Assembly: GCF_009914755.1 (NCBI RefSeq) | Contig: NC_060933.1 | Length of the DNA: 64,000 nt | Direction: 5' to 3' (one strand) | Origin: the human T2T-CHM13v2.0 reference genome, Homo sapiens | Part shown: positions 1 to 64,000 of the stretch, in pieces | Layout of the letters: the number at the start of each line of letters is the position of its first letter | How positions within the stretch are numbered: the stretch's first letter is position 1 | Translations under genes and position numbers: made by a program | The notes under the pieces: generated by a model | Seen by the model: the letters and a program-made list of their open reading frames with translations, nothing else | The model's database searches: none | Told to the model about the DNA's origin: nothing

Positions 1-3000
1 ATGGAATGGAATCTCTTCAAACCGAATGGAATGGAAAGGAATGGAATCAACACGAGTGGAAAGGAATGGAATGGAAAGGAATGGAATGGAATGGAATGGT
101 ACGGAATAGAACGGAATGGAACGAACTGGAATGGAATGGAATGGAATGGAATGGAATGGAATGGAATGGAATGGTATCGTTCCGAGTGGAATAGGAGGGA
201 ATGTATTCGAGTGGAATGGAAAGGAATGGAATCAACCAGAGTGGAATGGAAGGGAATGGAATGGAATGGAAACTAATAGAATGGAATCAACCCGAGTGGA
301 ATGGAATGGAAAGGACTGAAATGGAATGGAATGGAATGGAATGGAAGGCAATCAACTCGATTGTAATGGAATGGAATGGAATGGAATGGAATGGAATGGA
401 ATGGAATGGAATTAACCCGAATACAATGGAATGGAATGGAATGGAACGGAACGGAATGGAATGGAATGGAATGGAATGGAATGGAATGGTATGGAATGGA
501 ATGGAATGGTATGGAATAGAATGGAATGGAACGAAGTGTAATGGAATGGAATTGAATGGAATGGAATGGAATGGAATCAACGCAAGTGCAGGGGAATGTA
601 ATGGAACGGAATGCAATGGAATGGAATCATCCGGAATGGAATGGAATGGAAAGGAATGGAATGGAATGGAATCAACCCGAGTGCAATGGAATGGAGAGGA
701 ATGAAATGGAATGGAATGGAACAACCCGAATGGAATGGAATGTAATGGACAGTAAGGGAGTTGAATAGAATCAATCCGAATGTAATGGAATGGAATGCAA
801 CGGAATGGAATGGAATGGAATGGAATGGAAAGGAATGGAATGGAATGGAATGGACTGCAAAGGAATGGAATCAACCCGAGTGGAATGGCATGCAATGGAA
901 TGCAACTGAATGGAATGGAATGGAATCAACTCGAGTGGAAAGGAATGGAATGGAATGGAAAGGAATGGAATGAAGTCAACTCGAGTGGAATGGAATGGAA
1001 TGGAATGGATAGGAATGGATTGCAATGGAATGAAATGGAATGGAAAGAATGGAATCAATCATTCCGAGTGGAATGGAAGGGAATGTAATAGAGTGGAAAG
1101 AAGGGAATGGAATCAACCCGAGTGGAATGCAAGGCAATGGAATGGAATGGAAAGGAATGGAATGGAATCAACTCGATTGCAATGGAATGGAATGGAATGG
1201 AATGGAATGGAATGGAATCAACTCGATGGCAATCGAATGGAATGGAATGGAATTAACCCGAATGGAATGGAATGGAATGGAATGGAACGGAACGGAATGG
1301 AATGGAATGGAATGGAATGGAATGGAATGGAATCAACGCGAGTGCAGGGGAATGGAATGGAATGGAATGCAATGGAATGGAATCTTCCGGAATGGAATGG
1401 AATGGAATGAAAGGCAATGGATTCAACTCGATGGCAATGGAATGGAATAGAATGGAATGGAATGGAATGGAATGGAATTGAATGGAATGGATTGCCTTCA
1501 AACCGAATGGAATGGAAAGGAATGGAATAAACACGAGTGGAAAGGAATGGAATGGAAAGGAATGGAATGGAATGGAATGGTATGGAATAGAATGGAATCG
1601 AACGAACTGGAATGGAATGGAATGGAATGGAATGGAATGGAATGGAATGGAATCGTTCCGAGTGGAATAGGAGGGAATGTATTCGAGTGGAATGGAAAGG
1701 AATGGAATCAACCAGAGTGCAATGGAAGGGAATGGAATGGAATGGAAACTAATAGAATGGAATCAACCCGAGTGGAAAGGAATGGAAAGGACTGGAATGG
1801 AATGGAATGGAATGGAATGGAATGGAATCAACTCGATTGTAATGGAATGGAATGGAATGGAATGGAATGGAATGGAATGGAATTAACCCGAATACAATGG
1901 AATGGAATGGAATGGAACGGAATGGAGTGGAATGGAATGGAATCAACCCGAGTGCAGGGGAATGGAATGGAATGGAATGCAATGGAATGGAATCATCCGG
2001 AATGGAATGGAATGGAATGGAATGCAAAGCAATGGAATCCACTCGATTGCAATGGAATGGAATGGAATGGAAAGGAATAGAATTGAATCAACCCGAGTGT
2101 AATGGAATGGAAAGGACTGGAATGGAGTGGAATGGAATGGAATGGAATGGAATGGAATCAACTCGATTGGAATGGAATCTAATGGAATGGAATGGAATGG
2201 AATGGAATGGAATTAACCCGAATAGAATGGAATGGAATGGAATGGAACGGAATGGAATGGAATGGAATGGAATGGAATGGAATCAACCCGACTGCAGGGG
2301 AATGGAATGGAATGGAATGGAATGGAATGGAATCATCCGGAACGGAATGGAATGGAATGGAATGGAATCAACTCGATTGCAATGGAATGGAATGGAATGG
2401 AATGGAATGGAATGGAATGGAATGGAATGGAATGGAATGGAATTAACCGGAATAGAATGGAATGGAATGGAATGGAACGGAATGGAATGGAATGGAATGG
2501 AATCAACCCGAGTGCAGGGGAATGGAATGGAATGGAATGCAATGGAATGGAATCATCCGGAATGGAATGGAATGGAATGGAATGCAATCAACCTGATGCA
2601 ATGGAATGGAGTGGAATGGAATGGAATGGAATGGAAACATCCCGAATGGAATGGAATGTAATGGAGTGTAAGGGAATTGAATAGAATCAAACGGAATGGA
2701 ATGGAATGGAATGGAATGAAATGGAATGGAATGGAATGGAATGGAATCAACCCGAGTGCAATGGAATGGATTCGAATGGAATGGAATGGAATGGAATGGA
2801 TTCAACAAGAATGGAATGGAAAGGAATGGAATCAACCCGAGTGTAATGGCATGGAATGGAACGGAATGGAATGGGATGGAATGGAATGGTACGGCATAGA
2901 ATGGAATGGAATGAAATGGAATGGAATGGAATGGAATGGAATGGAATGGAATGAACCCGTGTGCAATGGAATGGAATGGAATGGATTCAACTCGAATGGA

Positions 3001-5019
3001 ATCAACTCGATTGCAATGGAATGGAATGGAAGTGAAAGGAATAGAATGGAATCATCCCGAGTGGAATGGAATGGAAAGGACTGGAATGGAGTGGAATGGA
3101 ATGGAATGGAATTAACCCGAATAGAATGAAATGGAACGGAATGGAATGGAATGTAATGGAATGGAATGGAATGGAATCAACCCGAGTGCAGGGGAATGGA
3201 ATGGAATGGAATGCAATGGAATGGAATCATCCGGAATGGAAAGGAATGGAATGGAATGGAATGGAATGGAATGGAATGGAATGGAATCAACTCGATTTCA
3301 ATGGAATGGAATGGAATAGAATGGAATGGAATTAACACGAATAGAATGGAATGGAATGGAATTGAATGGAACAGAAAGGAATGGAATGGAATGGAATGGA
3401 ATCAACCCAAGTGCAGGGGAATGGAATGGAATGGAATTCAATGGAATGGAATCATCCGGAATGGAATGGAATGGAATGGAATGGAATGGAATGGAATGGA
3501 ATGGAATGGAATCAACCCGAGTGCAATGGAATGGAGAGGAATGGAATGGAATGGAATGGAAACTACACGAATCGAATGGAATGTAATGGAGTGTAAGGGA
3601 ATTGAATAGAATGAATCCGAATGGAATGGAATGGAATGGAATCAACGCGAGTGCAGGGGAATGGAATGTAATGGAATGCAATGGAATGGAATCTTCCGGA
3701 ATGGAATGGAATGGAATGGAATGCAATGGATTCAACTCGATTGCAATGGAATGGAATAGAATGGAATGGAATGGAATGGAATGGAATTAACCCGAATTGA
3801 ATGGAATAGAATGGAACGGAATGGAACGGAACGGAATGGAATGGAATGGAATGGAATGGAATGGAATGGTGGGGAATGGAATGGAATGGAATGGAATCAA
3901 CGCGAGTGCAGGGGAATGTAATGGAAAAGAATGTAATGGAATGGAATCATCCGGAATGGAATGGAATGGAATGGAATGGAATGGAATCAACCCGAGTGCA
4001 ATGGAATGGAGTGGAATGGAATGGAATGGAATGGAACAACCCGAATGGAATGGAATGTAATGGAGACTAAGGGAGTTGAATAGAATCAATCCGAATGTAA
4101 TGGAATGGAATGGAACGGAATGGAATGGAATGGAATGGAATGGAATGCAATTGAATGGAATCAACCCGAGTACAATGGAATGGAATGGAATGGAATGGAA
4201 TGGAATGGAATGGAATGGAATGGAATGGCTTCAAACCGAATGGAATGGAAAGGAATGGAATCAACACGAGTGGAATGGAATGGAATGGAATGGAATGCAA
4301 TCGAATGGAATGGAATGGAAAGAAATGGAATGGAATGGAATGGAATGGAATGGAATGGAATGGAATCGTTCCGAGTGGAATAGGAGGGAATGTATTCGAG
4401 TGGATTGGAAAGGAATGGAATCAACCAGACTGGAATGGAAGGGAATGGAATGGAATGGAAACTAATAGAATGGAATCAACCCGAGTGGAATGGAATGGAA
4501 AGGACTGGAATGGAATGGAATGGAATGGAATGGAATGGAATGGAATCAACCCGATTGTAATGGAATGGAATGGAATGGAATGGAATGGAATGGAATGGAA
4601 TGGAATGGAATGGAATGGAATTAACCCAAATACAATGGAATGGAATGGAATGGAACGGAATGGAGTGGAATGGAATGGAATCAACCCGAGTGCAGGGGAA
4701 TGGAATGGAATGGAATGGAATGCAATGGAATGGAATCATCCGGAATGGAATGGAATGGAATGGAATGCAAAGCAATGGAATCAACTCGATTGCAATGCAA
4801 TGGAATGGACTGGAAAGGAATACATTGGAATCAACCCGAGTGGAATGGAATGGAAAGGACTGGAATGGAGTGGAATGGAATGGAATGGAATGGAATGGAA
4901 TCAACTCGATTGGAATGGAATGGAATGGAATGGAATGGAATGGAATTAACCCGAATAGAATGGAATGGAATTAAATGGAAGGGAACGGAATGAAATGGAG
5001 TGGAATGGAATGGAATGGA

Positions 5020-8000
5020 ATGGAATGGAATGGAATGGAATCAACCCGACTGCAGGGGAATGGAATGGAATGGAATGCAATGGAATGCATTCAACTTGAA
5101 TGGAATGGAAAGAATGGAATCAACACGAGTGGAATGGCATGGATTGTAATCGAATGGAATGGAATGAACCCGAGTACAGGAGAATGGAATGGAATGGAAT
5201 GCAATGGAATGGAATCATCCGTAATGGAATGGAAAGGAATGGAATGGAATGGAATGGAATGGAATGGAATGGAATGGAATCAACTCGATTGCAATCGAAT
5301 GGAATGGAATGGAATTAACCCGAATAGAATGGAATGGAATGGAATGGAACGGAACGGAACGGAACGGAATGGAATGGAATGGAATGGAACGGAAAGGAAC
5401 GGAATGGAATGGAATGGAATGGAATGGAATCAACGCGAGTGCAGGGGAATGGAATGTAATGGAATGCAATGGAATGGAATCTTCCGGAATGGAATGGAAT
5501 GGAATGGAATGGAATCAACCCGAGTGCAATGGAGTGGAGTGGAATGGAATGGAATGGAATGGAACAACCCGAATGGAATGGAATGTAATGGAGAGTAAGG
5601 GAGTTGAATAGAATCATTCCGAATATAATGGAGTGGAATGGAACGGAATGGAATTGAATGGAATGGAATGGAATGCAATGGAATGGAATCAACCCGAGTG
5701 CAATGGAATGGAGAGGAATGGAATGGAATGGAATGGAAACTACCCGAATGGAATGGAATGTAATGGAGTGTAAGGGAATTGAATAGAATCAATCTGAATG
5801 GAATGCAATGGAATGGAATGGAATGGAATGGAATGGAATGGAATGGAATGGTATGGAATGGAATGGAATGGTACGGAATAGAATGGAAAGGAAAGAATTG
5901 GAATGGAATGGAATCAATTGGAATGGAATGGAATGGAATGGAATCAACCCGAGTGCAGGGGAATGTAATGGAACGGAATGCAATGGAATGCAATCATCCG
6001 GAATGGAATGGAAAGGAATGCAATGGAAAGGAATGGAATGGAATGGAATTAACCCGAATAGAATGGAATGGAATGGAATGGAACGGAACGGAATTGAATG
6101 GAATGGAATGGAATGGAACGGAAAGGAATGGAATGGAATGGAATGGAATGGAATGGAATGGAATGGAATCAACGCGAGTGCAGGGGAATGGAATGAAATG
6201 GAATGGAATGGAATGGAATGGAATGGAATCAACCCGAGTGCAATGGAATGGAGTGGAATGGAATGGAATGGAATGGAACAACCCGAATGGAATGGAATGT
6301 AATGGAGAGTAAGGGAATTGAAAAGAATCAATCCCACTGTAATGGAATGCAATGGAACGGAATAGAATGTAATTGAATGGAATGGAATGGAATGGAATGC
6401 AATGGAATGGAATCAATCCGAGTGCAATCGAATGGAATCGAATGGAATGGAATGCAATGGAATGGATTCAACTTGAATGGAATGGAAAGAATGGAATCAA
6501 CACGAGTGGAATGGCATGGATTGGAATGGAATGGAATGGAATCAACCCAAGTACAGGGGAATGGAATGGAATGGAATGCAATGGAATGGAATCATCCGTA
6601 ATGGAATGGAAAGGAATGGAATGGAACAGAATGGAATGGAATGGAATGGAATGGTATGGATTGGAATGGAATGGAATGGAATCAACGCGAGTGCAGGGGA
6701 ATGTAATGGAACGGAAAGCAATGGAATGGAATCATCGGGAATGGAATGGAATGGAATGGAATGGAATGGAATCAACCCGAGTGCAATGGAATGGAGTGGA
6801 ATGGAATGGAATGGAATGGAACAACCCGAATGGAATGGAATGTAATGGAGAGTAACGGAGTTGAATAGAATAAATCCGAATGTAATGGAATGTAATGGAA
6901 CGGAATGGAATGGAATGGAATGGAATGCAATGGAATGGAATCAACCCGAGTACAATGGAATGGAATGGAATGGAATGGAATGGAATGGAATGGAGTGGAA
7001 TGGAATGGAATGGAATGGCTTCAAACCGAATGGAATGGAAAGGAATGGAATCAACACGAGTGAAATGGAATGGAATGGAATGGAAACAACCAGAATTGAT
7101 TGGAATATAATGGAGTGTAAGGGAATTGAATAGAATCAATCTGAATGTAATGAAATGGAATGGAACGGAATGGAATGGAATGGAATGGAATGGAATGCAA
7201 TGGAATGGAATCAACCCGAGTGCAATCGAATGGAATCGAATGGAATGGAATGCAATGGAATGGATTCAACTTGAATGGAATGGAAAGAATGGAATCAACA
7301 CGAGTGGAATGGCATGGATTGGAATGGAATGGAATAGAGTCAACCCGAGTACAGGGGAATGGAATGGAATGGAATGCAATGGAATGGAATCATCCGTAAT
7401 GGAATGGAAAGGAATGGAATGGAATGGAATGGAATGGAATAGATTGGAATCAACTCGATTGTAATCGAATGGAACGGAATGGAATTAACCCCAATAGAAT
7501 GGAATGGAATGGAATGGAACGGAACGGAATGGAAGGGAATGGAATGGAATGGAATGCAATGGAACGGAAAGGAATGGAATGGAATGGAATGGAATGGAAT
7601 GGAATGGAATGGATTCAACGCGAGTGCAGGGGAATGGAATGGAATGGAATGCAATGGAATGGAATCTTCCGGAATGGATTGGAATGGAATGGAATGGAAT
7701 GCAATGGATTCAACTCGATTGCAATGGAGTGGAATAGAATGGAATGGAATGGAATGGAATTAACCCGAATAGAATGGAATGGAATGGAATGGAACGGAAC
7801 GGAACGGAACGGAACGGAATGGAATGGAATGGAATAGAATGGAATGGAATTGTATGGAATGGAATGGAATGGTACGGAATAGAATGGAATGGAAAGAATT
7901 GGAATGGAATGGAATCGAATGGAATGATATGGAATGGAATGGAATGGAATGGAATCAACCCGAGTGCAGGCGAATGTAATGGATCGGAATGCAATGGAAT

Positions 8001-11000
8001 GGAATCATCCGGAATGGAATGCAATGGAATGGAATGGAATGGAATGCAATGGAATGGAATCAACCCGAGTACAATGGAATGCAATGGAATGGAATGGAAT
8101 GGAATGGAATGCAAAGTAATGGAATCAAACCGAGTGCAATCGAATGGAATCGAATGGAATGGAATGCAATGGAATGGATTCAACTTGAATGGAATGGAAA
8201 GAATGGAATCAACACGAGTGGAATGGCATGGAATGGAATGGAATGGAATGGAATGGAATGGAATGGAATGGAATGGAATCAACCCGAGTACAGGAGAATG
8301 GAATGGAATGGAATGCAATGGAATGGAATCATTAGTAATGGAATGGAAAGGAATGGAATGGAATGGAATGGAATGGAATGAACTCGATTGCAATTGAATG
8401 GAATTGAATGGAATTAACCCGAATAGAATGGAATGGAATGGAATGGAACGGGACGGAATGGAATGGAATGGAATGGAATGGAACGGAACGGAACGGAATG
8501 GAATGGCATGGAATGGAATGGAATGGAATGGAATCAACGCGAGTGCAGGGGAATGGAATGGAATGGAATGGAATGGAATGGAATGGAATGGAATCAACCC
8601 GACTGCAGGGGAATGGAATGGAATGGAATGCAATGGAATGCATTCAACTTGAATGGAATGGAAAGAATGGAATCAACACGAGTGGAATGGCATGGATTGT
8701 AATCGAATGGAATGGAATGAACCCGAGTACAGGGGAATGGAATGGAATGGAATGCAATGGAATGGAATCATCCGTAATGGAATGGAAAGGAATGGAATGG
8801 AATGGAATGGAATGGAATGGAATGGAATGGAATCAACTCGATTGCAATCGAATGGAATGGAATGGAATTAACCCGAATAGAATGGAATGGAATGGAATGG
8901 AACGGAACGGAACGGAACGGAATGGAATGGAATGGAATGGAACGGAAAGGAACGGAATGGAATGGAATGGAATGGAATGGAATGGAATCAACGCGAGTGC
9001 AGGGGAATGGAATGTAATGGAATGCAATGGAATGGAATCTTCCGGAATGGAATGGAATGGAATGGAATGGAATCAACCCGAGTGCAATGGAGTGGAGTGG
9101 AATGGAATGGAATGGAATGGAACAACCCGAATGGAATGGAATGTAATGGAGAGTAAGGGAGTTGAATAGAATCATTCCGAATATAATGGAGTGGAATGGA
9201 ACGGAATGGAATTGAATGGAATGGAATGGAATGCAATGGAATGGAATCAACCCGAGTGCAATGGAATGGAGAGGAATGGAATGGAATGGAATGGAAACTA
9301 CCCGAATGGAATGGAATGTAATGGAGTGTAAGGGAATTGAATAGAATCAATCTGAATGGAATGCAATGGAATGGAATGGAATGGAATGGAATGGAATGGA
9401 ATGGAATGGAATGGTATGGAATGGAATGGAATGGTACGGAATAGAATGGAAAGGAAAGAATTGGAATGGAATGGAATCAATTGGAATGGAATGGAATGGA
9501 ATGGAATCAACCCGAGTGCAGGGGAATGTAATGGAACGGAATGCAATGGAATGCAATCATCCGGAATGGAATGGAAAGGAATGCAATGGAAAGGAATGGA
9601 ATGGAATGGAATTAACCCGAATAGAATGGAATGGAATGGAATGGAACGGAACGGAATTGAATGGAATGGAATGGAATGGAACGGAAAGGAATGGAATGGA
9701 ATGGAATGGAATGGAATGGAATGGAATGGAATGGAATCAACGCGAGTGCAGGGGAATGGAATGAAATGGAATGGAATGGAATGGAATGGAATGGAATCAA
9801 CCCGAGTGCAATGGAATGGAGTGGAATGGAATGGAATGGAATGGAACAACCCGAATGGAATGGAATGTAATGGAGAGTAAGGGAGTTGAAAAGAATCAAT
9901 CCGATTGTAATGGAATGCAATAGAACGGAATAGAATGGAATTGAATGGAATGGAATGGAATGGAATGCAATGGAATGGAATCAATCCGAGTGCAATCGAA
10001 TGGAATCGAATGGAATGGAATGCAATGGAATGGATTCAACTTGAATGGAATGGAAAGAATGGAATCAACACGAGTGGAATGGCATGGATTGGAATGGAAT
10101 GGAATGGAATCAACCCAAGTACAGGGGAATGGAATGGAATGGAATGCAATGGAATGGAATCATCCGTAATGGAATGGAAAGGAATGGAATGGAACAGAAT
10201 GGAATGGAATGGAATGGAATGGTATGGATTGGAATGGAATGGAATGGAATCAACGCGAGTGCAGGGGAATGTAATGGAACGGAAAGCAATGGAATGGAAT
10301 CATCGGGAATGGAATGGAATGGAATGGAATGGAATGGAATCAACCCGAGTGCAATGGAATGGAGTGGAATGGAATGGAATGGAATGGAACAACCCGAATG
10401 GAATGGAATGTAATGGAGAGTAACGGAGTTGAATAGAATAAATCCGAATGTAATGGAATGTAATGGAACGGAATGGAATGGAATGGAATGGAATGCAATG
10501 GAATGGAATCAACCCGAGTACAATGGAATGGAATGGAATGGAATGGAATGGAATGGAATGGAATGGAGTGGAATGGAATGGAATGGAATGGCTTCAAACC
10601 GAATGGAATGGAAAGGAATGGAATCAACACGAGTGAAATGGAATGGAATGGAATGGAAACAACCAGAATGGATTGGAATATAATGGAGTGTAAGGGAATT
10701 GAATAGAATCAATCTGAATGTAATGAAATGGAATGGAACGGAATGGAATGGAATGGAATGGAATGGAATGAAATGGAATGGAATCAACCCGAGTGCAATC
10801 GAATGGAATCGAATGGAATGGAATGCAATGGAATGGATTCAACTTGAATGGAATGGAAAGAATGGAATCAACACGAGTGGAATGGCATGGATTGGAATGG
10901 AATGGAATAGAGTCAACCCGAGTACAGGGGAATGGAATGGAATGGAATGCAATGGAATGGAATCATCCGTAATGGAATGGAAAGGAATGGAATGGAATGG

Positions 11001-12145
11001 AATGGAATGGAATAGATTGGAATCAACTCGATTGTAATCGAATGGAACGGAATGGAATTAACCCCAATAGAATGGAATGGAATGGAATGGAACGGAACGG
11101 AATGGAAGGGAATGGAATGGAATGGAATGCAATGGAACGGAAAGGAATGGAATGGAATGGAATGGAATGGAATGGAATGGAATGGATTCAACGCGAGTGC
11201 AGGGGAATGGAATGGAATGGAATGCAATGGAATGGAATCTTCCGGAATGGATTGGAATGGAATGGAATGGAATGCAATGGATTCAACTCGATTGCAATGG
11301 AGTGGAATAGAATGGAATGGAATGGAATGGAATTAACCCGAATAGAATGGAATGGAATGGAATGGAACGGAACGGAACGGAACGGAACGGAATGGAATGG
11401 AATGGAATAGAATGGAATGGAATTGTATGGAATGGAATGGAATGGTACGGAATAGAATGGAATGGAAAGAATTGGAATGGAATGGAATCGAATGGAATGA
11501 TATGGAATGGAATGGAATGGAATGGAATCAACCCGAGTGCAGGCGAATGTAATGGATCGGAATGCAATGGAATGGAATCATCCGGAATGGAATGCAATGG
11601 AATGGAATGGAATGGAATGCAATGGAATGGAATCAACCCGAGTACAATGGAATGCAATGGAATGGAATGGAATGGAATGGAATGCAAAGTAATGGAATCA
11701 ACCCGAGTGCAATCGAATGGAATCGAATGGAATGGAATGCAATGGAATGGATTCAACTTGAATGGAATGGAAAGAATGGAATCAACACGAGTGGAATGGC
11801 ATGGAATGGAATGGAATGGAATGGAATGGAATGGAATGGAATGGAATCAACCCGAGTACAGGAGAATGGAATGGAATGGAATGCAATGGAATGGAATCAT
11901 TAGTAATGGAATGGAAAGGAATGGAATGGAATGGAATGGAATGGAATGAACTCGATTGCAATTGAATGGAATTGAATGGAATTAACCCGAATAGAATGGA
12001 ATGGAATGGAATGGAACGGGACGGAATGGAATGGAATGGAATGGAATGGAACGGAACGGAACGGAATGGAATGGCATGGAATGGAATGGAATGGAATGGA
12101 ATCAACGCGAGTGCAGGGGAATGGAATGGAATGGAATGGAATGGA
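5020..12145 (+). repeat. Tandem duplication, 2 copies of a ~3.56 kb unit
   Basis: Identical or near-identical ORF translations recur at offsets 3553 (5100/8653), 3568 (6477/10045, 8398/11966) and 3573 (7126/10699, 7744/11317). Rare markers such as atcattccgaatataat, taacggagtt, caggcgaatgt and cattagtaat each occur twice. Boundaries are approximate. Confidence 0.92.
5476..5490 (+). promoter_or_regulatory. Canonical heat-shock element (nGAAnnTTCnnGAAn), representative left-arm copy
   Basis: gGAAt-cTTCc-gGAAt. Further copies start at 1379, 3688, 7661, 9034, 11234 and 12158. The consensus match is direct; function is inferred. Confidence 0.6.
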
Positions 12146-13419
12146 ATGCAATGGAATGGAATCTTCCGGAATGGAATGGAATGGAATGGAATGGAATGGA
12201 ATGGAATGGAATGGAATTAACCCGAATACAATGGAATGGAATGCAATGGAACGGAATGGAGTGGAATGGAATGGAATCAACCCGAGTGCAGGGGAATGGA
12301 ATGGAATGGAATGCAATGGAATGGAATCATCCGGAATGGAATGGAATGGAATGGAATGCAATGCAATGGAATCAACTCTATTGCAATGGAATGGAATGGA
12401 AAGGAATAGAATGGAATCAACCCGAGTGGAATGGAATGGAAAGGACTGGAATGGAGTGGAATGGAATGCAATGGAATGGAATTAACTCGATTGGAATGGA
12501 ATGGAAAGGAATGGAATGGAATTAACCCGAATAGAATGGAATGCAATGGAATGGAACGGAATGGAATAGAATGGAATGGAATGGAATGGAATGGAAAGGA
12601 ATCAAACCGACTGCAGGGGAATGGAATGGAATGGAATGCAATGGAATGGAATCATCCGGAACGGAATGGAATGGAATGTAATGGAATCAACTCGATTGCA
12701 ATGGAATGGAATGGAATGGAATGGAATGGAATTCACCCGAATAGAATGGAATGGAATGGAATGGAAAGGAATGGAAGGGAAGGGAATGGAATGTAATCAA
12801 CCCGAGTGCAGGGGAATGGAATGGAATGGAATGCAATGGAATGGAATCATGCGGAATGGAATGGAATGGAATGGAATGGAATGGAATGGAATGGAATGGA
12901 ATAGAATGCAATGGAATGGAATCAACCCGAGTACAATGGAATGGAATGGAATGGAATGGAATGGAATGGAATGGAATGGAATGGAATTGAATGGAATGGA
13001 ATGCCTTCAAACTGAATGGAATGGAAAGGAATGTAATCAACACGAGTGGAATGGAATCGAATGGAATGGAATGGAATGGAATGGAATGGTACGGAATAGA
13101 ATGGAATGGAACGAAATGGAATGGAATGGAATGGAATGGAATCGTTCCGAGTGGAATAGGAGGGAATGTATTCGAGTGAAATGGAAAGGAATGGAATCAA
13201 CCAGTGTGCAATGGAAGGGAATGGAATGGAATGGAAACTAATAGAATGGAATCAACCCGAGTGGAATGGAATGGAAAGGACTGGAATGGAATGGAATGGA
13301 ATGGAATGGAATCAACTCCATTGTAATGGAATGGAATGGAATGGAAAGGAATGGAATGGAATGCAATGGAATTAACCCGAATACAATGAAAAGGAATGGA
13401 ATGGAACGGAATGCAAAGC

Positions 13420-13447
13420 AATGGAATCAACTCGGGTTGATTCCATT
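13420..13447. other. Inversion / strand-switch breakpoint forming a 28-bp quasi-palindrome
   Basis: aatggaatcaac-tcgg-gttgattccatt: perfect 12-bp inverted arms (13420-13431 and 13436-13447) around a 4-nt spacer. Satellite polarity flips exactly here. Confidence 0.97.
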
Positions 13448-13812: not shown

Positions 13813-13827
13813 ATTCCGGAAGATTCC
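13813..13827 (-). promoter_or_regulatory. Canonical heat-shock element, representative right-arm copy (nearest the junction)
   Basis: aTTCc-gGAAg-aTTCc. It recurs at e.g. 15639, 16024, 18639, 20169, 21017, 22330, 26411, 53490, 53555 and 60711. Confidence 0.6.
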
Positions 13828-51200: not shown

Positions 51201-52859
51201 CCATTACAATTCGTTCCATTCCATTCTATTCCATACCATTCCATTCCATTCCATACCATTCCATTCCATTCCGTTCCATTCCGTTCCGTTCCATTCCGTT
51301 CCATTCCATTCCATTCCATTCTATTCGGATTAATTCCATTCCATTCCATTCCATTCCATTCTATTCCATTCCATTGCAATCGAGTTGAATCCATTGCATT
51401 TCATTCCATTCCATTCCATTCCATTCCATTCCGAAAGATTCCATTCCATTACATTCCATTCCATTCCATTCCCCTGCACTCGCATTGATTCCATTCCATT
51501 CCATTCCATTCCATTCCGTTCCATTCCATTCCATTCCATTCCGTTCCGTTCCATTCCATTCCATTCCATTCCGTTCCATTCCATTCCATTCCATTCCATT
51601 CCATTCCATTCCGTTCCGTTCCATTCTATTTCATTCCACTCTATTCGGGTTAATTCCATTCCATTTCATTCGATGGCAATCGAGTTGATTCCATTCCATT
51701 CCATTCCATTCTATTCGGGTTAATTCCATTCCATTCCATTCGATTGCAATCGAGTTTATTCCATTCCATTCCATTCCATTCCATTCCATTCCATTCCTTT
51801 CCATTCCATTACGGATGATTCCATTCCATTGCATTCCATTCCAGTCCATTCCCCTGTACTCGGGTTGATTCCATTCCATTCCATTCCAATCCATACCATT
51901 CCACTCGTGTTGATTCCATTCTTTCCATTCCATTCAAGTTGAATCCATTCCATTGCATTCCATTCCATTCCATTCCCCTGCACTCGCGTTGATTCCATTC
52001 CATTCCATTCTATTCCATTCCATTCCCTTCTTTTCCGTTCCATTCCATTCCATTCCATTCCATTCCATTCCGTTCCGTTCCATTCCATTCCATTCCATTC
52101 CATTCCGTTCCGTTCCATTCCATTCCATTCCTTTCTATTCGGGTTAATTCCATTCCATTCCATTCGATTGCAATCGAGTTGATTCCATTCCATTCCATTC
52201 CTTTCCATTCCATTACGGATGATTCCATTTCATTGCATTCCATTCCATTCCATTCCATTCCCCTATACTCGGGTTGATTCCATTCCATTCCATTCCAATC
52301 CATGCCATTCCACTCGTTTTTATTCCATTCTTTCCATTCCATTCAAGTTGAATCCATTCCATTGCATTCCATTCCATTCGATTCCATTCGATTGCACTCG
52401 GGTTGATTCCATTCCATTGCATTCCATTCCATTCCATTCCATTCCGTTCCATTCCATTTCATTACATTCAGATTGATTCTATTCAATTCCCTTACACTCC
52501 ATTATATTCCAATCCATTCTGGTTGTCTCCATTCCATTCCATTCCATTTCACTCCATTCCATTGCACTCGGGTTGATTCCATTCCATTCCATTCCATTGC
52601 ATTGCATTCCATTCCATTCCAGATGATTCCATTCCATTGCATTCCATTCCATTCCATTCCCCTGCACTCGGGTTGATTCCATTCCATTCCATTCCATTAC
52701 ATTACGTTCCATTCCATTCCATTCCATTCGGATTGATTCTATTCAATTCCCTTACACTCCATTACATTCCATTCCATACGGGTAGTTTCCATTCCATTCC
52801 ATTCCATTCCTCTCCATTCCATTGCACTCGGGTTGATTCCATTCCATTCCATTCCATTC

Positions 52860-52899
52860 CATTACATTACATTACATTACATTACATTACATTACATTA
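52860..52899 (+). repeat. (CATTA)8 variant-pentamer microsatellite inside the satellite
   Basis: c attacattac attacattac attacattac attacatta. Elsewhere CATTA occurs only singly or in pairs. Confidence 0.93.
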
Positions 52900-55689
52900 T
52901 ATTCCGTTCCATTGTACTCGGGTTGATTCCATTCCATTGCATTCCATTCCATTCCATTCCATTCCATTCCGTTCCATTCCATTACATTCGGATTGATTCT
53001 ATTCAACTCCCTTACTCTCCATTACATTCCATTCCATTCGGGTTGTTCCATTCCATTCCACTCCATTCCACTCCATTCCATTGCGCTCGGGTTGATTCCA
53101 TTCCATTCAATTCCATTCCATTCCATTCCATTCCATTCCGGATGATTCCATTCCATTGCAATCCGTTCCATTACATTCCCCAGCACTCGGGTTGATCCCA
53201 TTCCATTCCATTCCATTCCATTCCATTCCATTCCAATTCTTTCCATTCCATGCTATTCCGTACCATTCCATTCAATTCCATACAATTCCATTCCATTCCA
53301 TTCCACTCCGTTCCGTTCCGTTCCGTTCTGTTCCGTTCCATTCCATTCCATTCCATTCTATTCGGTTTAATTCCATTCCATTCCATTCCATTCCATTCCA
53401 TTCCATTCCATTCCATTCCATTGCAATCGAGTTGAATCCATTGCATTCCATTCCATTCCATTCCATTCCATTCCATTCCATTCCATTCAATTCCGGAAGA
53501 TTCCATTCCATTGCATTCCATTCCATTCCATTCCATTCCATTCCATTCCATTCCATTCCGGAAGATTCCATTCCATTGCATTCCATTCCATTCCATTCCC
53601 CTGCTCTCGCGTTGATTCCATTCCATTCCATTCCATTCCATTCCATTCCATTCCTTTCCGTTCCATTCCATTCCATTCCATTCCATTCCAATCCACTCCA
53701 TTCCGTTCCGTTCCGTTCCATTCCATTCCATTCCATTCTATTCGGGTTAATTCCATTACATTCCATTCGATTGCAATCGAGTTGTTTCCATTCCATTCTA
53801 TTCCATTCCATTCCATTCCATTCCATTCCTTTCCATTCCATTCCATTACGGATGATTCCATTCCATTGCATTCCATTCCATTCCATTCCCCTGTACTCGG
53901 GTTGATTCCATTCCATTTCATTCGAATCCCTGCCATTCCACTCGTGTTGATTCCATTCTTTCCATTCCATTCAAGTTGAATCCATTCCATTGCATTCCAT
54001 TCCATTCCATTCCCCTGCAGTCGGGTTGATTCCATTCCATTCCATTCCATTCGATTCCATTCCATTCCATTCCGTTCCGTTCCATTCCATTCCATTCCAT
54101 TCTATTCGGGTTGATTCCATTCCATTCCATTCCATTCCATTCCAATCGAGTTGATTCCATTCCATTCCATTCCATTCCATTCCACTCCATTCCAGTCCTT
54201 TCCATTCCATTCCACTCGCGTTGATTCCAATGTATTCCTTTCCATTCCATTCCAATCCATTGCAATCGAGTTGATTCCATTGCTTTGCATTCCATTCCAT
54301 TCCATTCCATTCCGGATGATTCCATTCCATTGCATTCCATTCCATTCCATTCCTCTGCACTCGGGTTGATTCCATTCCATTCCACTCCATTCCGTTCCAT
54401 TCCATTCCATTCCATTGTATTCGGGTTAATTCCATTCCATTCCATTCCATTCCATTCCATTACAATCGAGTTGATTCTATTCCATTCCATTCCATTCCAG
54501 TCCTTTCCATTCCATTCCACACGGGTTGATTCCATTCTATTAGTTTCCATTCCATTCCATTCCCTTCCATTCCACTCTGGTTGATACCATTCCTTTCCAT
54601 TCCACTCGAATACATTCCCTCCTATTCCACTCGGAACGATTCCATTCCATTCCATTCCATTCCATTCCATTCCATTCCATTCCATTCCATTCCATTTCGT
54701 TCCATTCCATTCTATTCCGTATCATTCCATTCCATTCCATTCCATTCCATTCCATTCCATTCCATTGTACTCGGGTTGATTCAATTCCATTGCATTCCAT
54801 TCCATTCCATTCCCTTCCATTCCATTCCATTCCATTCCGTTGCATTCCATTCCATTACATTCGGATTGATTCTATTCAACTCCCTTACTCTCCATTACAT
54901 TCCATTGCACTCGGATTGATTCCATTCCATTCCATTCCATTCCATTCCATTCCATTCCGGATGATTACATTCCATTGCATTCCGTTCCATTACATTCCCC
55001 TGCACTCGCGTTGATTCCAATCCATTCCATTCCATTCCATTCAATTCCATTCCATTACAATTCGTTCCATTCCATTCTATTCCGTACCATTCCATTCCAT
55101 TCCATACCATTCCATTCCATTCCATTCCATTCCATTCCATTCCATTCCGTTCCATTCCGTTCCATTCCATTCCATTCCATTCTATTCGCATTAATTCCAT
55201 TCCATTCCATTCCATTCCATTCTATTCCATTCCATTGCAATCGAGTTGAATCCATTGCATTTCATTCCATTCCATTCCATTCCGGAAGATTCCATTCCAT
55301 TGCATTCCATTCCATTCCATTCCCCTGCACTCGCGTTGATTCCATTCCATTCCATTCCATTCCATTCCATTCCATTCCGTTCCGTTCCGTTCCGTTCCAT
55401 TCCATTCAATTCCATTCCATTCCGTTCCGTTCCATTCCATTCCATTCCATTCCATTCTATTCGGGTTAATTCCATTCCATTCCATTCGATTGCAATCGAG
55501 TTGATTCCATTCCATTCCATTCCATTCCATTCCATTCCATTCCATTCTTTTCCATTCCATTACGGATGATTCCATTCCATTGCATTCCATTCCATTCCAT
55601 TCCCCTGTACTCGGGTTGATTCCATTCCATTCCATTCCAATCCATGCCATTCCACTCGTGTTGATTCCATTCTTTCCATTCCATTCAAG

Positions 55690-58600
55690 TTGAATCCATT
55701 CCATTGCATTCCATTCCTTTCGATTCCATTCTATTGCACTCGGGTTGATTCAATTCCATTGCATTCCATTCCATTCCATTCCATTCCATTCCGTTGCATT
55801 CCATTCCATTACATTCCGATTGATTCTATTCAACTCCCTTACTCTCCATTACATTCCATTCCATTCGGGTTGTTCCATTCCATTCCATTCCATTCCACTC
55901 CATTCCATTGCACTCGGGTTGATTCCATTCCTTTCCATTCCATTCCGGATGATTCCATTCCATTCCATTCCGTTCCATTACATTCCCCTGCACTCGCGTT
56001 GATTCCATTCCATTCCATTCCATTCCATTCAATTCCATTCCATTACAATTCGTTCCATTCCATTCTATTCCTTACCATTCCATTCCATTCCATACCTTTC
56101 CATTCCATTGCATTCCATTCCATTCCATTCCGTTCCATTCCGTTCCATTCCATTCCATTCCATTCCATTCGGGTTAATTCCATTCCATTCCATTCCATTC
56201 AATTCCATTCCATTACAATCGAGTTGATTCCATTCCATTCCATTCCATTCCAGTCCTTTCCATTCCATTCCTCTCGGGTTGATTCCATTCTATTAGTTTC
56301 CATTCCATTCCATTCCCTTCCATTCCACTCAGGATTTTTCCATTCCTTTCCATTCCACTCGAATACATTCCCTCCTATTCCACTCAGAACGATTCCATTC
56401 CATTCCATTCCATTCCATTCCATTCCATTCCATTCCATTCCATTGTACTCGGGTTGATTCAATTCCATTGCATTCCATTCCATTCCATTCCATTCCATTC
56501 CGTTGCATTCCATTCCATTACATTCGGATTGATTCTATTCAACTCCCTTACTCTCCATTACATTCCATTCCATTCGGGTTGTTCCATTCCATTCCATTCC
56601 ATTCCACTCCATTCCATTGCACTCGGGTTGATTCCATTCCATTCCATTCCATTCCATTCCATTCCGGATGATTCCATTCCATTGCATTCCGTTCCATTAC
56701 ATTCCCCTGCACTCGCGTTGATTCCATTCCATTCCATTCCATTCCATTCAATTCCATTCCATTACAATTCGTTCCATTCCATTCTATTCCGTACCATTCC
56801 ATTCCGTTCCATTCCGTTCCATTCCATTCCATTCCATTCTATTCTAATTAATTCCATTCCATTCCATGCCATTCCATTCCCTTCTATGCGGGTTAATTCC
56901 ATTCCATTCCATTCCATTCCAATCCATTCCATTCTATTCCATTCCATTGCAATCGAGTTGAATCCATTGCATTTCATTCCATTCCATTCCATTCCATTCC
57001 ATTCTGGAAGATTCCATTCCATTGCATTCCATTCCATTCCATTCCCCTGCAGTCGCGTAGATTCCCTTCCATTCCATTCCATTCCATTCCATCCATTCGG
57101 TTCCGTTCCGTTCCATTCCATTCCATTCCATTCCATTCCATTCCGTTCCGTTCCATTCCATTCCATTCCATTCTATTCGGGTTAATTCCATTCCATTCCA
57201 TTCGATTGCTATCGAGTTGATTCCATTCCATTCCATTCCATTCCATTCCATTCCTTTCCATTCCATTACGGATGATTCCATTCCATTGCATTCCATTCCA
57301 TTCCATTCCCCTGTACTCGGGTTGATTCCATTCCATTCCATTCCAATCCATGCCATTCCACTCGTGTTGATTCCATTCTTTCCATTCCATTCAAGTTGAA
57401 TCCATTCCATTGCATTCCATTCCATTCGATTCCATTCGATTGCACTCGGGTTGATTCCATTCCATTGCATTCCATTCCATTCCATTTCATTCCATTTCAT
57501 TCCGTTCCATTCCATTTCATTACATTCAGATTGATTCTATTCAATTCCCTTACATTCCATTATATTCCAATCCATTCTGGTTGTCTCCATTCAATTCCAT
57601 TCCATTTCACTCCATTCCATCGCACTCGGGTTGATTCCATTCCATTCCATTCCATTGCATTCCATTCCATTCCATTCCGGATGATTCCATTCCATTGCAT
57701 TCCATTCCATTCCATACCCCTGCACTCGGGTCGATTCCATTCCATTCCATTCCATTACATTCCGTTCTATTCCATTCCATTCCATTCGGATTGATTCTAT
57801 TCAATTCCCTTACATTCCATTCCATTCCATTCCATTCGGGTAGTTTCCATTCCATTCCATTCCATTCCTCTCCATTCCATTGCACTCGGGTTGATTCCAT
57901 TCCATTCCATTCCATTCCATTCCATTCCATTCCGTTCCATTTTACTCGGGTTGATTCCATTCCATTGCATTCCCTTGCATTCCATTCCATTCCATTCCAT
58001 TCCATTCCGTTCCATTCCATTACATTCGGATTGATTCTATTCAACTCCCTTACTCTCCATTACATTCCATTGCACTCGGGTTGATTCCATTCCATTCCAT
58101 TCCATTCCATTCCATTCCATTCCGGATGATTACATTCCATTGCATTCCGTTCCATTACATTCCCCTGCACTCGCGTTGATTCCAATCCATTCCATTCCAT
58201 TCCATTCAATTCCATTCCATTACAATTCGTTCCATTCCATTCTATTCCGTACCATTCCATTCCATTCCATACCATTCCATTCCATTCCATTCCATTCCAT
58301 TCCATTCCGTTCCATTCCGTTCCATTCCATTCCATTCCATTCTATTCGCATTAATTCCATTCCATTCCATTCCATTCCATTCTATTCCATTCCATTGCAA
58401 TCGAGTTGAATCCATTGCATTTCATTCCATTCCATTCCATTCCGGAAGATTCCATTCCATTGCATTCCATTCCATTCCATTCCCCTGCACTCGCGTTGAT
58501 TCCATTCCATTCCATTCCATTCCATTCCATTCCATTCCGTTCCGTTCCGTTCCATTCCATTCAATTCCATTCCATTCCGTTCCGTTCCATTCCATTCCAT

Positions 58601-61600
58601 TCCATTCCATTCTATTCGGGTTAATTCCATTCCATTCCATTCGATTGCAATCGAGTTCATTCCATTCCATTCCATTCGATTCCATTCCATTCCATTCCAT
58701 TCCATTCCATTCTTTTCCATTCCATTACGGATGATTCCATTCCATTCCATTCCATTCCGGATGATTCCATTCCATTGCATTCCGTTCCATTACATTCCCC
58801 TGCACTCGGGTTGATTCCATTCCATTCCATTCCATTCCATTCCATTCCATTCCATTCCGGATGATTCCATTCCATTGCATTCCGTTCCATTACATTCCCC
58901 TGCACTCGCGTTGATTCCATTCCATTCCATTCCATTCCATTCAATTCCATTCCATTACAATTCGTTCCATCCCATTCTATTCCGTACCATTCCATTCCGT
59001 TCCATTCCGTTCCATTCCATTCCATTCGATTCTATTCGAATTAATTCCATTCCATTCCATGCCATTCCATTCCCTTCTATGCGGGTTAATTCCATTCCAT
59101 TCCATTCCATTCCATTCCATTCTATTCCATTCCATTGCAATCGAGTTGAATCCATTGCATTTCATTCCATTCCATTCCATTCCATTCCATTCTGGAAGAT
59201 TCCGTTCCATTGCATTCCATTCCATTCCATTCCCCTGCACTCGCGTTGATTCCATTCCATTCCATTCCATTCCATTCCATCCATTCGGTTCCGTTCCGTT
59301 CCATTCCATTCCATTCCATTCCATTCCATTCCGTTCCGTTCCATTCCATTCCATTCCATTCTATTCGGGTTAATTCCATTCCATTCCATTCGATTGCTAT
59401 CGAGTTGATTCCATTCCATTCCATTCCATTCCATTCCATTCCATTCCTTTCCATTCCATTACGGATGATTCCATTCCATTGCATTCCATTCCATTCCATT
59501 CCCCTGTACTCGGGTTGATTCCATTCCATTCCATTCCAATCCATGCCATTCCACTCGTGTTGATTCCATTCTTTCCATTCCATTCAAGTTGAATCCATTC
59601 CATTGCATTCCATTCCATTCGATTCCATTCGATTGCACTCGGGTTGATTCCATTCCATTGCATTCCATTCCATTCCATTTCATTCCATTCCATTCCGTTC
59701 CATTCCATTTCATTACATTCAGATTGATTCTATTCAATTCCCTTACATTCCATTATATTCCAATCCATTCTGGTTGTCTCCATTCAATTCCATTCCATTT
59801 CACTCCATTCCATCGCACTCGGGTTGATTCCATTCCATTCCATTCCATTGCATTCCATTCCATTCTATTCCGGATGATTCCATTCCATTGCATTCCATTC
59901 CATTCCATACCCCTGCACTCGGGTTGATTCCATTCCATTCCATTCCATTACATTCCGTTCTATTCCATTCCATTCCATTCGGATTGATTCTATTCAATTC
60001 CCTTACATTCCATTCCATTCCATTCCATTCGGGTAGTTTCCATTCCATTCCATTCCATTCCTCTCCATTCCATTGCACTCGGGTTGATTCCATTCCATTC
60101 CATTCCATTCCTTTCCATTCCATTCCATTCCGTTCCATTTTACTCGGGTTGATTCCATTCCATTGCATTCCCTTCCATTCCATTCCATTCCATTCCATTC
60201 CATTCCGTTCCATTCCATTACATTCGGATTGTTTCTATTCAGCTCCCTTACTCTCCATTACATTCCATTCCATTCGGGTTGTTCCATTCCATTCCATTCC
60301 ATTCCACTCCATTCCATTGCGCTCGGGTTGATTCCATTCCATTCCATTCCATTCCATTCCATTCCATTCCATTCCGGATGATTCCATTCCATTGCATTCC
60401 GTTCCATTACATTCCCCTGCACTCGGGTTGATTCCATTCCATTCCATTCCATTCCATTCCATACGATTCCATTCCATTCCAATTCTTTCCATTCCATTCT
60501 ATTCCGTACCATTCCATTCCATTCCATACAATGCCATTCCATTCCATTCCACTCCGTTCCGTTCCGTTCCGTTCTGTTCCGTTCCATTCCATTCCGTTCC
60601 ATTCTATTCGGTTTAATTCCATTCCATTCCATTCCATTCCATTCCATTCCATTCTATTCCATTCCATTGCAATCGAGTTGAATCCATTGCATTCCATTCC
60701 ATTCCATTCCATTCCGGAAGATTCCATTCCATTGCATTCCATTGCATTCCATTCCATTCCATTCCATTCCATTCCATTCCATTCCATTCCATTGTACTCG
60801 GGTTGATTCCATTCCATTGCATTCCATTCCATTCCATTCCATTCCATTCCATTACATTCGGATTGATTCTATTCAACTCCCTTACTCTCCATTACATTCC
60901 ATTCCATTCGGGTTGTTCCATTCCATTCCATTCCATTCCACTCCATTCCATTGCACTCGGGTTGATTCCATTCCATTCCATTCCATTCCGGAAGATTCCA
61001 TTCCATTGCATTCCATTCCATTCCATTCCCCTGCACTCGCGTTGATTCCATTCCATTCCATTCTATTCCATTCCATTCCCTTCCTTTCCTTTCCATTCCA
61101 TTACATTCCATTCCATTCCATTCCGTTCCGTTCCATTCCATTCCATTCCATTCTATTCGGGTTAATTCCATTCCATTCCATTCGATTGCAATCGAGTTGT
61201 TTCCATTCCATTCCATTCCATTCCATTCCATTCCATTGCATTCCATTCCATTCCTTTCCATTCCTTTACGGATGATTCCATTCCATTGCATTCCATTCCA
61301 TTCCATTCCCCTGTACTCGGGTTGATTCCATTCCATTCCATTCCAATCCATGCCATTCCACTCGTGTTGATTCCATTATTCCATTCCATTCAAGTTGAAT
61401 CCATTCCATTGCATTCCATTCCTTTCGATTCCATTCTATTGCACTCGGGTTGATTCAATTCCATTGCATTCCATTCCATTCCATTCCATTCCATTCCGTT
61501 GCATTCCATTCCATTACATTCCGATTGATTCTATTCAACTCCCTTACTCTCCATTACATTCCATTCCATTCGGGTTGTTCCATTCCATTCCATTCCATTC

Positions 61601-64000
61601 CACTCCATTCCATTGCACTCGGGTTGATTCCATTCCTTTCCATTCCATTCCGGATGATTCCATTCTATTCCATTCCGTTCCATTACATTCCCCTGCACTC
61701 GCGTTGATTCCATTCCATTCCATTCCATTCCATTCAATTCCATTCCATTACAATTCGTTCCATTCCATTCTATTCCTTACCATTCCATTCCATTCCATAC
61801 CTTTCCATTCCATTCCATTCCATTCCATTCCATTCCGTTCCATTCCGTTCCATTCCATTCCATTCCATTCCATTCGGGTTAATTCCATTCCATTCCATTC
61901 CATTCAATTCCATTCCATTACAATCGAGTTGATTCCATTCCATTCCATTCCATTCCAGTCCTTTCCATTCCATTCCTCTCGGGTTGATTCCATTCTATTA
62001 GTTTCCATTCCATTCCATTCCCTTCCATTCCACTCAGGATTTTTCCATTCCTTTCCATTCCACTCGAATACATTCCCTCCTATTCCACTCAGAACGATTC
62101 CATTCCATTCCATTCCATTCCATTCCATTCCATTCCATTCCATTCCATTGTACTCGGGTTGATTCAATTCCATTGCATTCCATTCCATTCCATTCCATTC
62201 CATTCCGTTGCATTCCATTCCATTACATTCGGATTGATTCTATTCAACTCCCTTACTCTCCATTACATTCCATTCCATTCGGGTTGTTCCATTCCATTCC
62301 ATTCCATTCCACTCCATTCCATTGCACTCGGGTTGATTCCATTCCATTCCATTCCATTCCATTCCATTCCGGATGATTCCATTCCATTGCATTCCGTTCC
62401 ATTACATTCCCCTGCACTCGCGTTGATTCCATTCCATTCCATTCCATTCCATTCAATTCCATTCCATTACAATTCGTTCCATTCCATTCTATTCCGTACC
62501 ATTCCATTCCGTTCCATTCCGTTCCATTCCATTCCATTCCATTCTATTCTAATTAATTCCATTCCATTCCATGCCATTCCATTCCCTTCTATGCGGGTTA
62601 ATTCCATTCCATTCCATTCCATTCCAATCCATTCCATTCTATTCCATTCCATTGCAATCGAGTTGAATCCATTGCATTTCATTCCATTCCATTCCATTCC
62701 ATTCCATTCTGGAAGATTCCATTCCATTGCATTCCATTCCATTCCATTCCCCTGCAGTCGCGTAGATTCCCTTCCATTCCATTCCATTCCATTCCATCCA
62801 TTCGGTTCCGTTCCGTTCCATTCCATTCCATTCCATTCCATTCCATTCCGTTCCGTTCCATTCCATTCCATTCCATTCTATTCGGGTTAATTCCATTCCA
62901 TTCCATTCGATTGCTATCGAGTTGATTCCATTCCATTCCATTCCATTCCATTCCATTCCTTTCCATTCCATTACGGATGATTCCATTCCATTGCATTCCA
63001 TTCCATTCCATTCCCCTGTACTCGGGTTGATTCCATTCCATTCCATTCCAATCCATGCCATTCCACTCGTGTTGATTCCATTCTTTCCATTCCATTCAAG
63101 TTGAATCCATTCCATTGCATTCCATTCCATTCGATTCCATTCGATTGCACTCGGGTTGATTCCATTCCATTGCATTCCATTCCATTCCATTTCATTCCAT
63201 TTCATTCCGTTCCATTCCATTTCATTACATTCAGATTGATTCTATTCAATTCCCTTACATTCCATTATATTCCAATCCATTCTGGTTGTCTCCATTCAAT
63301 TCCATTCCATTTCACTCCATTCCATCGCACTCGGGTTGATTCCATTCCATTCCATTCCATTGCATTCCATTCCATTCCATTCCGGATGATTCCATTCCAT
63401 TGCATTCCATTCCATTCCATACCCCTGCACTCGGGTCGATTCCATTCCATTCCATTCCATTACATTCCGTTCTATTCCATTCCATTCCATTCGGATTGAT
63501 TCTATTCAATTCCCTTACATTCCATTCCATTCCATTCCATTCGGGTAGTTTCCATTCCATTCCATTCCATTCCTCTCCATTCCATTGCACTCGGGTTGAT
63601 TCCATTCCATTCCATTCCATTCCATTCCATTCCATTCCATTCCGTTCCATTTTACTCGGGTTGATTCCATTCCATTGCATTCCCTTGCATTCCATTCCAT
63701 TCCATTCCATTCCATTCCGTTCCATTCCATTACATTCGGATTGATTCTATTCAACTCCCTTACTCTCCATTACATTCCATTGCACTCGGGTTGATTCCAT
63801 TCCATTCCATTCCATTCCATTCCATTCCATTCCGGATGATTACATTCCATTGCATTCCGTTCCATTACATTCCCCTGCACTCGCGTTGATTCCAATCCAT
63901 TCCATTCCATTCCATTCCATTCCATTCCATTACAATTCGTTCCATTCCATTCTATTCCGTACCATTCCATTCCATTCCATACCATTCCATTCCATTCCAT
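55690..64000 (-). repeat. Duplication with 5705-bp offset; second copy runs off the window end
   Basis: ORFs at 55690/61395, 56454/62159, 57396/63101 and 57695/63400 are offset by 5705. Shared rare markers include cactcaggatttttc, attctaatta and cgcgtagattccc. Confidence 0.9.

What the first reader, a model, noticed from the sequence alone, without database searches (positions are those of the whole stretch)
1379..62720. A recurrent satellite variant spells a perfect heat-shock element, about 40 copies in 64 kb
Seen: replacing one GGAAT by CTTCC gives gGAAt cTTCc gGAAt, an exact nGAAnnTTCnnGAAn three-unit HSE in 5-bp register. By eye there are 7 copies on the left arm and about 35 on the right, roughly one per 1.5 kb. 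Several variants change only the free positions and keep the consensus: ttccggaatattcc (28394, 34266, 48504), ttccggaagtttcc (43619) and ttctggaagattcc (57001, 59189, 62706). One copy (~51430, ccgaaag) breaks it. The frequent sister motif gGAAt cATCc gGAAt is a one-mismatch HSE. Established: HSF1 binds satellite III (notably 9q12) on stress, forms nuclear stress bodies and drives SatIII lncRNA. Inference: this motif, rather than bulk GGAAT, is the HSF1 landing site and could explain subfamily specificity. Its central CCGG CpG could make it methylation-sensitive.
Basis: partly seen in the sequence, partly recalled or inferred. Interest (0 to 1): 0.75.

Follow-up and report, generated by a model that had tools for sequence, protein, structure and literature searches.

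The report
Chromosome 9 satellite's heat-shock landing sites
One variant of the simple GGAAT repeat on human chromosome 9 spells a perfect heat-shock-factor site about 12,700 times, almost only on that chromosome, and is likely what draws HSF1 there under stress, an idea already suggested in print but not found tied to this sequence.

Summary
Observation confirmed: 44 perfect GAAnnTTCnnGAA elements (7 left, 37 right; 37 exact), the only inverted nGAAn pairs in this chr9 HSat3 window. They are not 44 events: 41 of 44 sit in one allele of a 60-bp module spread by duplication. Genome-wide the 15-mer occurs 12,700 times, apparently confined to the chr9 array. The Y-chromosome DYZ1 array carries three different perfect HSEs (about 14,500 copies). 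Together these two known primary HSF1 targets hold about 37% of all 76,189 perfect HSEs; 34 kb of other HSat3-like DNA held none. The segment under the standard SatIII primers lacks the motif in 75 of 75 copies, which may explain why the classic probe looked non-canonical. Not supported: selection on the consensus (ascertainment bias; p=0.86) and blocking by CpG methylation. HSEs in SatIII and ChIP following motif density are in print; this k-mer and census were not found. Binding was not tested here.

The parts
24..13427 (+). HSat3 block, GGAAT on + strand; holds 7 perfect HSEs at 1380, 3689, 5477, 7662, 9035, 11235, 12159
13440..64000 (-). HSat3 block in inverted orientation; holds 37 perfect HSEs between 13814 and 62719
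13430..13434 (.). Inversion junction; ACTCG is shared by a CAACT-CG unit of the left arm and an inverted CAACC-CGAGT unit of the right arm (5-bp microhomology)
   Evidence: sequence printed
1334..1393 (+). Type example of the 60-bp module allele that carries the HSE: CAACG CGAGT GCAGG, four GGAAT, GCAAT, GGAAT, then the element
   Evidence: 41 of 44 HSEs have this marker within 66 bp upstream
1379..1393 (+). Exact 15-mer GGAATCTTCCGGAAT, perfect three-unit HSE with CpG in the tail-to-tail spacer
28394..28408 (-). ATTCC variant, HSE intact; 34266 is its 5872-bp tandem-duplicate, 48504 a third copy
43619..43633 (-). GGAAA-CTTCC variant, HSE intact
57001..57015 (-). CpG-transition variant, HSE intact; 62706 lies 5705 bp away and 59189 lies 3517 bp from 62706, both duplication offsets
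51428..51442 (-). Broken copy (CTTTC) in the HSE allele
39023..39037 (-).
1989..2003 (+). Example of the sister one-mismatch element GGAATCATCCGGAAT (55 exact copies in the window)
7209..7375 (+). Example of the segment bounded by the published HSat3 qPCR primers; no HSE inside

Best explanation
A single allele of a 60-bp HSat3 module spells a perfect heat-shock element, occurs about 12,700 times in the chromosome 9 array and almost nowhere else, and likely serves as the preferred seat for HSF1 trimers that nucleate nuclear stress bodies there. Shown: the sequence, its linkage to one module haplotype, its spread by tandem duplication, its confinement to chr9 in every listing and sample, and the parallel but different HSEs in DYZ1. 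Inferred: an A-to-T change in the parent CATCC unit created it once and array turnover amplified it, probably without selection on the element; activated HSF1 binds it at HSE-like affinity about every 1.5-2 kb, with the one-mismatch sisters and plain pentamers adding weaker contacts; chromatin state then decides whether a given cell uses the array. CpG methylation likely does not block binding.
For: Canonical geometry, purine before all three GAA units in 44 of 44, pyrimidine-purine spacer in 44 of 44, matching the structural preferences in PMC8379338. No other inverted nGAAn pair in the window. 91 exact copies in 20 x 10 kb of chr9 extrapolate to 12,558 (9,660-15,318) against 12,700 genome-wide. 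Rare-flank subsets: 113 of 113 listed copies on chr9, 5 more unlisted. DYZ1 about 14,517; chr9-type 13,915; remainder 47,757 against a reversed-pattern control of 43,994. 0 HSEs in 9 HSat3-like stretches (34 kb) from chr10, 14, 15, 17, 20 and non-DYZ1 Y. HSF1 ChIP is enriched where motifs are dense in HSat3 (3.12 heat-shocked vs 1.09). HSF1 needs DNA binding and trimerisation for granules. Heat-induced RNA comes from the whole chr9 array.
Against: No binding data examined at k-mer level. The sister CATCC element is more numerous (20,563) and also chr9-restricted. chr9 and DYZ1 are also the largest arrays, so size is confounded. pHuR98, which by my primer inference lacks the motif, still bound HSF1 in vitro, at about fourfold more protein, and an HSF1 DBD structure on head-to-tail SatIII repeats exists. 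Published weight-matrix enrichment ranks chr9 B5 (median 10.0) below A1 (22.3), A5 (18.6), A6 (16.1) and A2 (14.6); A1/A2 arrays on chr10-22 were not knowingly sampled. In HT1080 cells nSBs form on Y only although 9q12 binds HSF1 in vitro.
Confidence: 0.68

Rival explanations
1. HSF1 loads on HSat3 by avidity for plain GGAAT repeats and one-mismatch sites; chr9 and Y win because they are the biggest arrays, and the perfect element adds little.
For: pHuR98 bound recombinant HSF1 though described as non-canonical; DBD crystal on head-to-tail SatIII; one-mismatch sites are twice as dense as perfect ones on chr9 (1.15 vs 0.58 per kb); weight-matrix enrichment is widespread across subfamilies.
Against: HSF1 ChIP is patchy and follows motif density whereas TEAD is uniform; the 7.5-Mb chr15 array (size) had 0 perfect HSEs in 16 kb and is not named a primary target; pHuR98 binding needed more protein and only slow-migrating probe forms.
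Confidence: 0.2
2. Chromatin state, DNA structure or a cofactor, not sequence motif, selects 9q12.
For: HT1080 cells skip 9q12 unless HSF1 is overexpressed; Jolly 2002 proposed secondary structure or special conformation.
Against: Granules are reconstituted with recombinant HSF1 on unshocked, protein-depleted chromosomes; the motif forms no unusual single-strand fold (z 0.09).
Confidence: 0.1
3. On origin only: the element was selected and is maintained as an HSF1 sink, rather than hitchhiking on satellite turnover.
For: Independent HSE words in both primary targets; distinct variants core/free 8/9 in the HSE allele against 20/6 in CATCC alleles, p=0.057; intact core 90 of 100 against 105 of 128, p=0.13.
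Against: Core sites vary as often as flanking GAA (13/900 vs 20/1500, p=0.86); free-site excess p=0.20; copies are not independent; any nTTCn unit between two intact pentamers makes an HSE, and TTC is 1 of 11 recurrent substituted triplets here.
Confidence: 0.2

Closest known systems
Canonical three-site heat-shock element bound by the HSF1 trimer (Feng 2021, PMC8379338)
   Same: Three inverted nGAAn units in 5-bp register, purine before each GAA, pyrimidine-purine tail-to-tail spacer.
   Different: Embedded in satellite at about 0.6 per kb over megabases rather than at a promoter; never four contiguous units (0 of 44); binding untested.
Perfect HSEs in Yq12 DYZ1 satellite III (Penin 2021, PMC7889540)
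   Same: Perfect HSEs interspersed in an HSat3 array that is a primary HSF1 target.
   Different: Different words and chromosome; I count three per 3.55-kb DYZ1 unit with the strict pattern (paper: four); the chr9 word sits in an irregular module, not a fixed higher-order unit.
'Putative HSEs' at 9q12 (Vourc'h 2022 review, PMC9032817, unpublished observation) and HSF1 motif/ChIP concordance in HSat3 (Franklin, bioRxiv 2024.10.22.616524)
   Same: Same idea: HSF1 recognises motifs scattered in HSat3.
   Different: Neither passage read names the word or its copy number; the review says the number of sites is unknown; weight-matrix enrichment does not single out chr9 whereas the strict element does.
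pHuR98 / chromosome 9 satellite III binding by HSF1 (Jolly 2002, PMC2173303)
   Same: Same locus and factor.
   Different: That probe was judged non-canonical; the segment under the standard primers lacks this element in 75 of 75 copies.

Membership tests
Canonical heat-shock element | At least three contiguous inverted nGAAn units | tested here: met
   44 matches
Canonical heat-shock element | Favourable flanks: purine before GAA, pyrimidine-purine tail-to-tail spacer | tested here: met
   44 of 44 against the rules
Canonical heat-shock element | Four or more units for two-trimer cooperativity | tested here: not met
   0 four-unit matches; a gapped GAA follows in 44 of 44, none precedes. Not required for membership.
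Canonical heat-shock element | Sequence-specific HSF1 occupancy after stress | not testable with these tools
   No reads or assays available; region-level support only
Canonical heat-shock element | Drives transcription nearby | not testable with these tools
   Array-wide induction reported; start sites unknown
HSat3 (chr9 B5 array) | Tandem GGAAT/ATTCC pentamers with recurrent variant units | tested here: met
   period 5, 73% matches; token table
HSat3 (chr9 B5 array) | Location within the annotated hsat3_9_3(B5) region | tested here: met
   chr9:71.80-71.86 Mb lies inside the span of that region shown in PMC11622622; k-mer subfamily classification itself not run
Selected (conserved) regulatory element | Core positions vary less than neutral neighbours | tested here: inconclusive
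   p=0.86 against flanking GAA; p=0.057 and 0.13 against CATCC alleles

The most novel reading that the evidence does not exclude
Two satellite arrays, on chr9 and Y, independently evolved and keep perfect HSE words that make up over a third of all perfect HSEs in a male genome; this one k-mer is the sequence address of nuclear stress bodies, so inherited differences in its copy number would titrate HSF1 and tune the human heat-shock response.
Probability: 0.25. Interest if true: 0.8.

Novelty: new member of a known kind. Interest (0 to 1): 0.55.

Why it matters
Since 2002 it has been unclear why HSF1 picks 9q12 among many GGAAT arrays, because the probe used showed no canonical element. A named, countable word turns that into a one-day test on existing ChIP reads, with built-in controls (a one-base sister in the same module, motif-poor subdomains of the same array, the chr15 array). 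If it holds, about 14,000 sites per chr9 and about 14,500 on Y form a sink of the same order as all other perfect HSEs (about 47,800), with a sex difference and likely person-to-person variation.

Tried and rejected
1) '44 independent occurrences': rejected; one haplotype, 34 distinct 100-bp contexts, duplication offsets 5872, 5705, 3573, 3512 bp. 2) 'Variants spare the consensus': rejected as ascertainment; with an upstream anchor 10 of 100 kept copies are broken (126 anchors, 26 dropped as out of register or lacking the slot). 3) Methylation block: judged unlikely; a literature search and two papers gave no direct data. 4) Hairpin explanation: no fold beyond shuffles for 2 of 2 tested 61-mers. 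5) Published weight-matrix enrichment as an explanation of chr9 specificity: fails, 109 of 254 non-B5 arrays exceed the B5 median. 6) Of 24 stretches taken off chr9 at recalled coordinates, 11 were not GGAAT satellite and were dropped; 13 were kept (2 DYZ1, 9 other HSat3-like, 2 HSat2-like). 7) The listing omits reverse-strand copies seen at 49.50 Mb, so long listings are not exhaustive; only counts and short listings were relied on. 8) Altemose 2022 and one HSF1 affinity paper could not be read; Neudegger 2016 is cited only through. 9) Stepwise CATCC to CTTCC to ATTCC perfects a palindrome around CCGG; template-switch origin considered, untested.

Full report
Observation. The window is pure HSat3: a GGAAT block (24-13427) and an inverted block (13440-64000), period 5, with no gap over 55 bp between pentamers. 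It holds 44 perfect GAAnnTTCnnGAA elements, 7 left and 37 right; 37 are the exact 15-mer. They are the only head-to-head (44) and tail-to-tail (44) nGAAn pairs, and none extends to four units. Dinucleotide shuffles give 1.96, but an order-6 Markov model gives 42.8, so the excess is one amplified word.

Anatomy. The element ends a 60-bp module that has several linked alleles. Of 115 modules anchored upstream, the CTTCC slot occurred only with the CAACG/GCAGG/GGAAT haplotype (30 of 39 such anchors, 0 of 76 others); in the larger set 1 of 54 of a second CAACG haplotype also had it. 41 of 44 HSEs have that marker upstream. A single A-to-T origin from CATCC followed by amplification is inferred.

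Genome-wide census. The exact 15-mer occurs 12,700 times (control 3). Twenty 10-kb chr9 samples held 91, which over 27.6 Mb (size from PMC10505914) predicts 12,558, bootstrap 9,660-15,318; 18 of 20 samples held at least one exact copy. Three rare-flank subsets gave 118 copies; all 113 listed lie in the chr9 array and 5 were not listed. All perfect HSEs number 76,189 (reversed-pattern control 43,994). HSEs preceded by GGAAT number 24,116, split into 13,915 of chr9 type, 9,728 of DYZ1 type with 8 listed off Y and 473 others; a third DYZ1 word adds 4,797. Assigning these to chr9 and Y rests on the first 100 places listed, the strand balance and the samples, not on full lists. The two arrays then hold about 37%, and the remainder (47,757) is near the control. 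Of 24 stretches off chr9 taken at recalled coordinates, 13 were GGAAT satellite: DYZ1 had 7 HSEs in 8 kb, nine other HSat3-like stretches 0 in 34 kb (16 kb from chr15), two HSat2-like stretches 0 in 6 kb. Small numbers do occur elsewhere: 6 in a chr5 array and about 95 over 12.5 Mb of the chr1 satellite region in one context. Subfamily names for sampled stretches are recalled, and A1/A2 arrays on chr10-22 were not knowingly sampled.

Against the simple reading. The one-mismatch sister occurs 20,563 times, matches the chr9 extrapolation (18,768; 16,008-21,390) and shows 1 listed copy on chr1-8, so chr9 specificity cannot separate the two. chr9 and Y are also the largest arrays. In the supplement of Franklin et al. 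(file 3, HSF1 row, 489 arrays) median weight-matrix enrichment is 10.0 for B5, below A1, A2, A5 and A6, and 0 for A4. HT1080 cells form primary bodies on Y only.

Selection. With an anchor outside the element (window plus 20 samples; 126 anchors, 100 kept), 90 copies are intact and 10 broken. Core sites carry 13 variants in 900 site-copies, flanking GAA 20 in 1500 (p=0.86); free-site excess p=0.20; against CATCC alleles p=0.13 for intact cores and p=0.057 for distinct variants. Copies share ancestry, so these p-values are lenient. No selection is shown; a weak trend remains.

Methylation. The CpG fills the tail-to-tail spacer, where a pyrimidine-purine step is preferred and a purine directly before GAA is contacted (PMC8379338 section 11). 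5mC would put a methyl where many genomic HSEs carry T (TA and TG spacers are common in the listing), so I infer tolerance. Pericentric methylation did not change on heat shock in HeLa (PMC2770647). CpG decay is similar in HSE and sister alleles (3 of 100, 7 of 128). No direct binding data were found.

The old paradox. Jolly 2002 found HSF1 binding to the 158-bp pHuR98 at over 12.5 ng against over 3 ng for an HSE probe and wrote that its nGAAn organisation is non-canonical. The segment bounded by published HSat3 primers has no HSE in 75 of 75 copies, and a random 158-mer holds one 8.4% of the time. That these primers mark pHuR98/X06137 is partly recalled (links the standard primers to X06137.1); the probe sequence itself was not seen. 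This cuts both ways: it explains the miss, and shows weaker binding without the element.

What is in print. Perfect HSEs in DYZ1 (PMC7889540, passages); putative HSEs at 9q12 as an unpublished observation, number unknown (PMC9032817, passages); HSF1 ChIP enriched where motifs are dense (Franklin preprint, passages, section 5, supplement files 2 and 3; figures and the PDF supplement not seen). A full-text search for the core 13-mers gave 2 listings, unrelated by title and not opened; searches listed no paper naming the word or a census. Subscription papers are not covered. Also seen as passages: PMC2173303 (plus section 8), PMC10505914, PMC13705371, PMC13634412, PMC8379338 (plus section 11), PMC7862700, PMC11810102, PMC11622622, PMC2770647, 10.64898/2026.02.12.705659.

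Verdict. A real, canonical HSE, one amplified allele, apparently chr9-specific, likely the preferred HSF1 seat (0.68). The concept is known; the word, the census and the chr9/Y convergence were not found in print and make the question directly testable. Interest 0.55.

Noticed in passing
window 13430-13434: The strand switch uses a 5-bp microhomology (ACTCG) between two different variant units, one of many inversion breakpoints in this array (the Franklin table splits chr9 B5 into 235 pieces).
   Followed up: partly
G000:C9, listing: Clusters of one rare variant recur at offsets of about 8.75 Mb (52.5-54.1 to 61.2-62.9 Mb) and about 10.6 Mb (55.7-58.9 to 66.3-69.5 Mb), suggesting megabase duplications inside the chr9 array; may be known.
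   Followed up: no
L013 (C9:65.50 Mb) and L001 (C9:49.20 Mb): HSE-poor subdomains of the same array: 0 and 1 perfect HSEs in 10 kb, with other module alleles; natural internal controls.
   Followed up: partly
L026, L033 (DYZ1): Three different perfect HSE words per 3.55-kb unit, about 4,800 copies each, unrelated to the chr9 word.
   Followed up: yes
G000:C5:49.72-49.91 Mb: Six HSEs with a CTTCC unit followed by CGAA or AGAA in a chr5 GGAAT array; related or convergent.
   Followed up: no
window 28394-28408: The ATTCC variant shares its first 10 bases with the core of the HSP70 HSE probe printed in PMC2173303, and completes two overlapping 10-bp palindromes.
   Followed up: no
listing: All 12 copies of one rare variant lie on the forward strand although the array is near balanced; unexplained.
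   Followed up: no
G000 C3, C4, C13 (2), C14, C15, C21, C22: Single copies of a DYZ1-like HSE context with a TA spacer on seven autosomes, possibly paralogous small HSat3 blocks.
   Followed up: no
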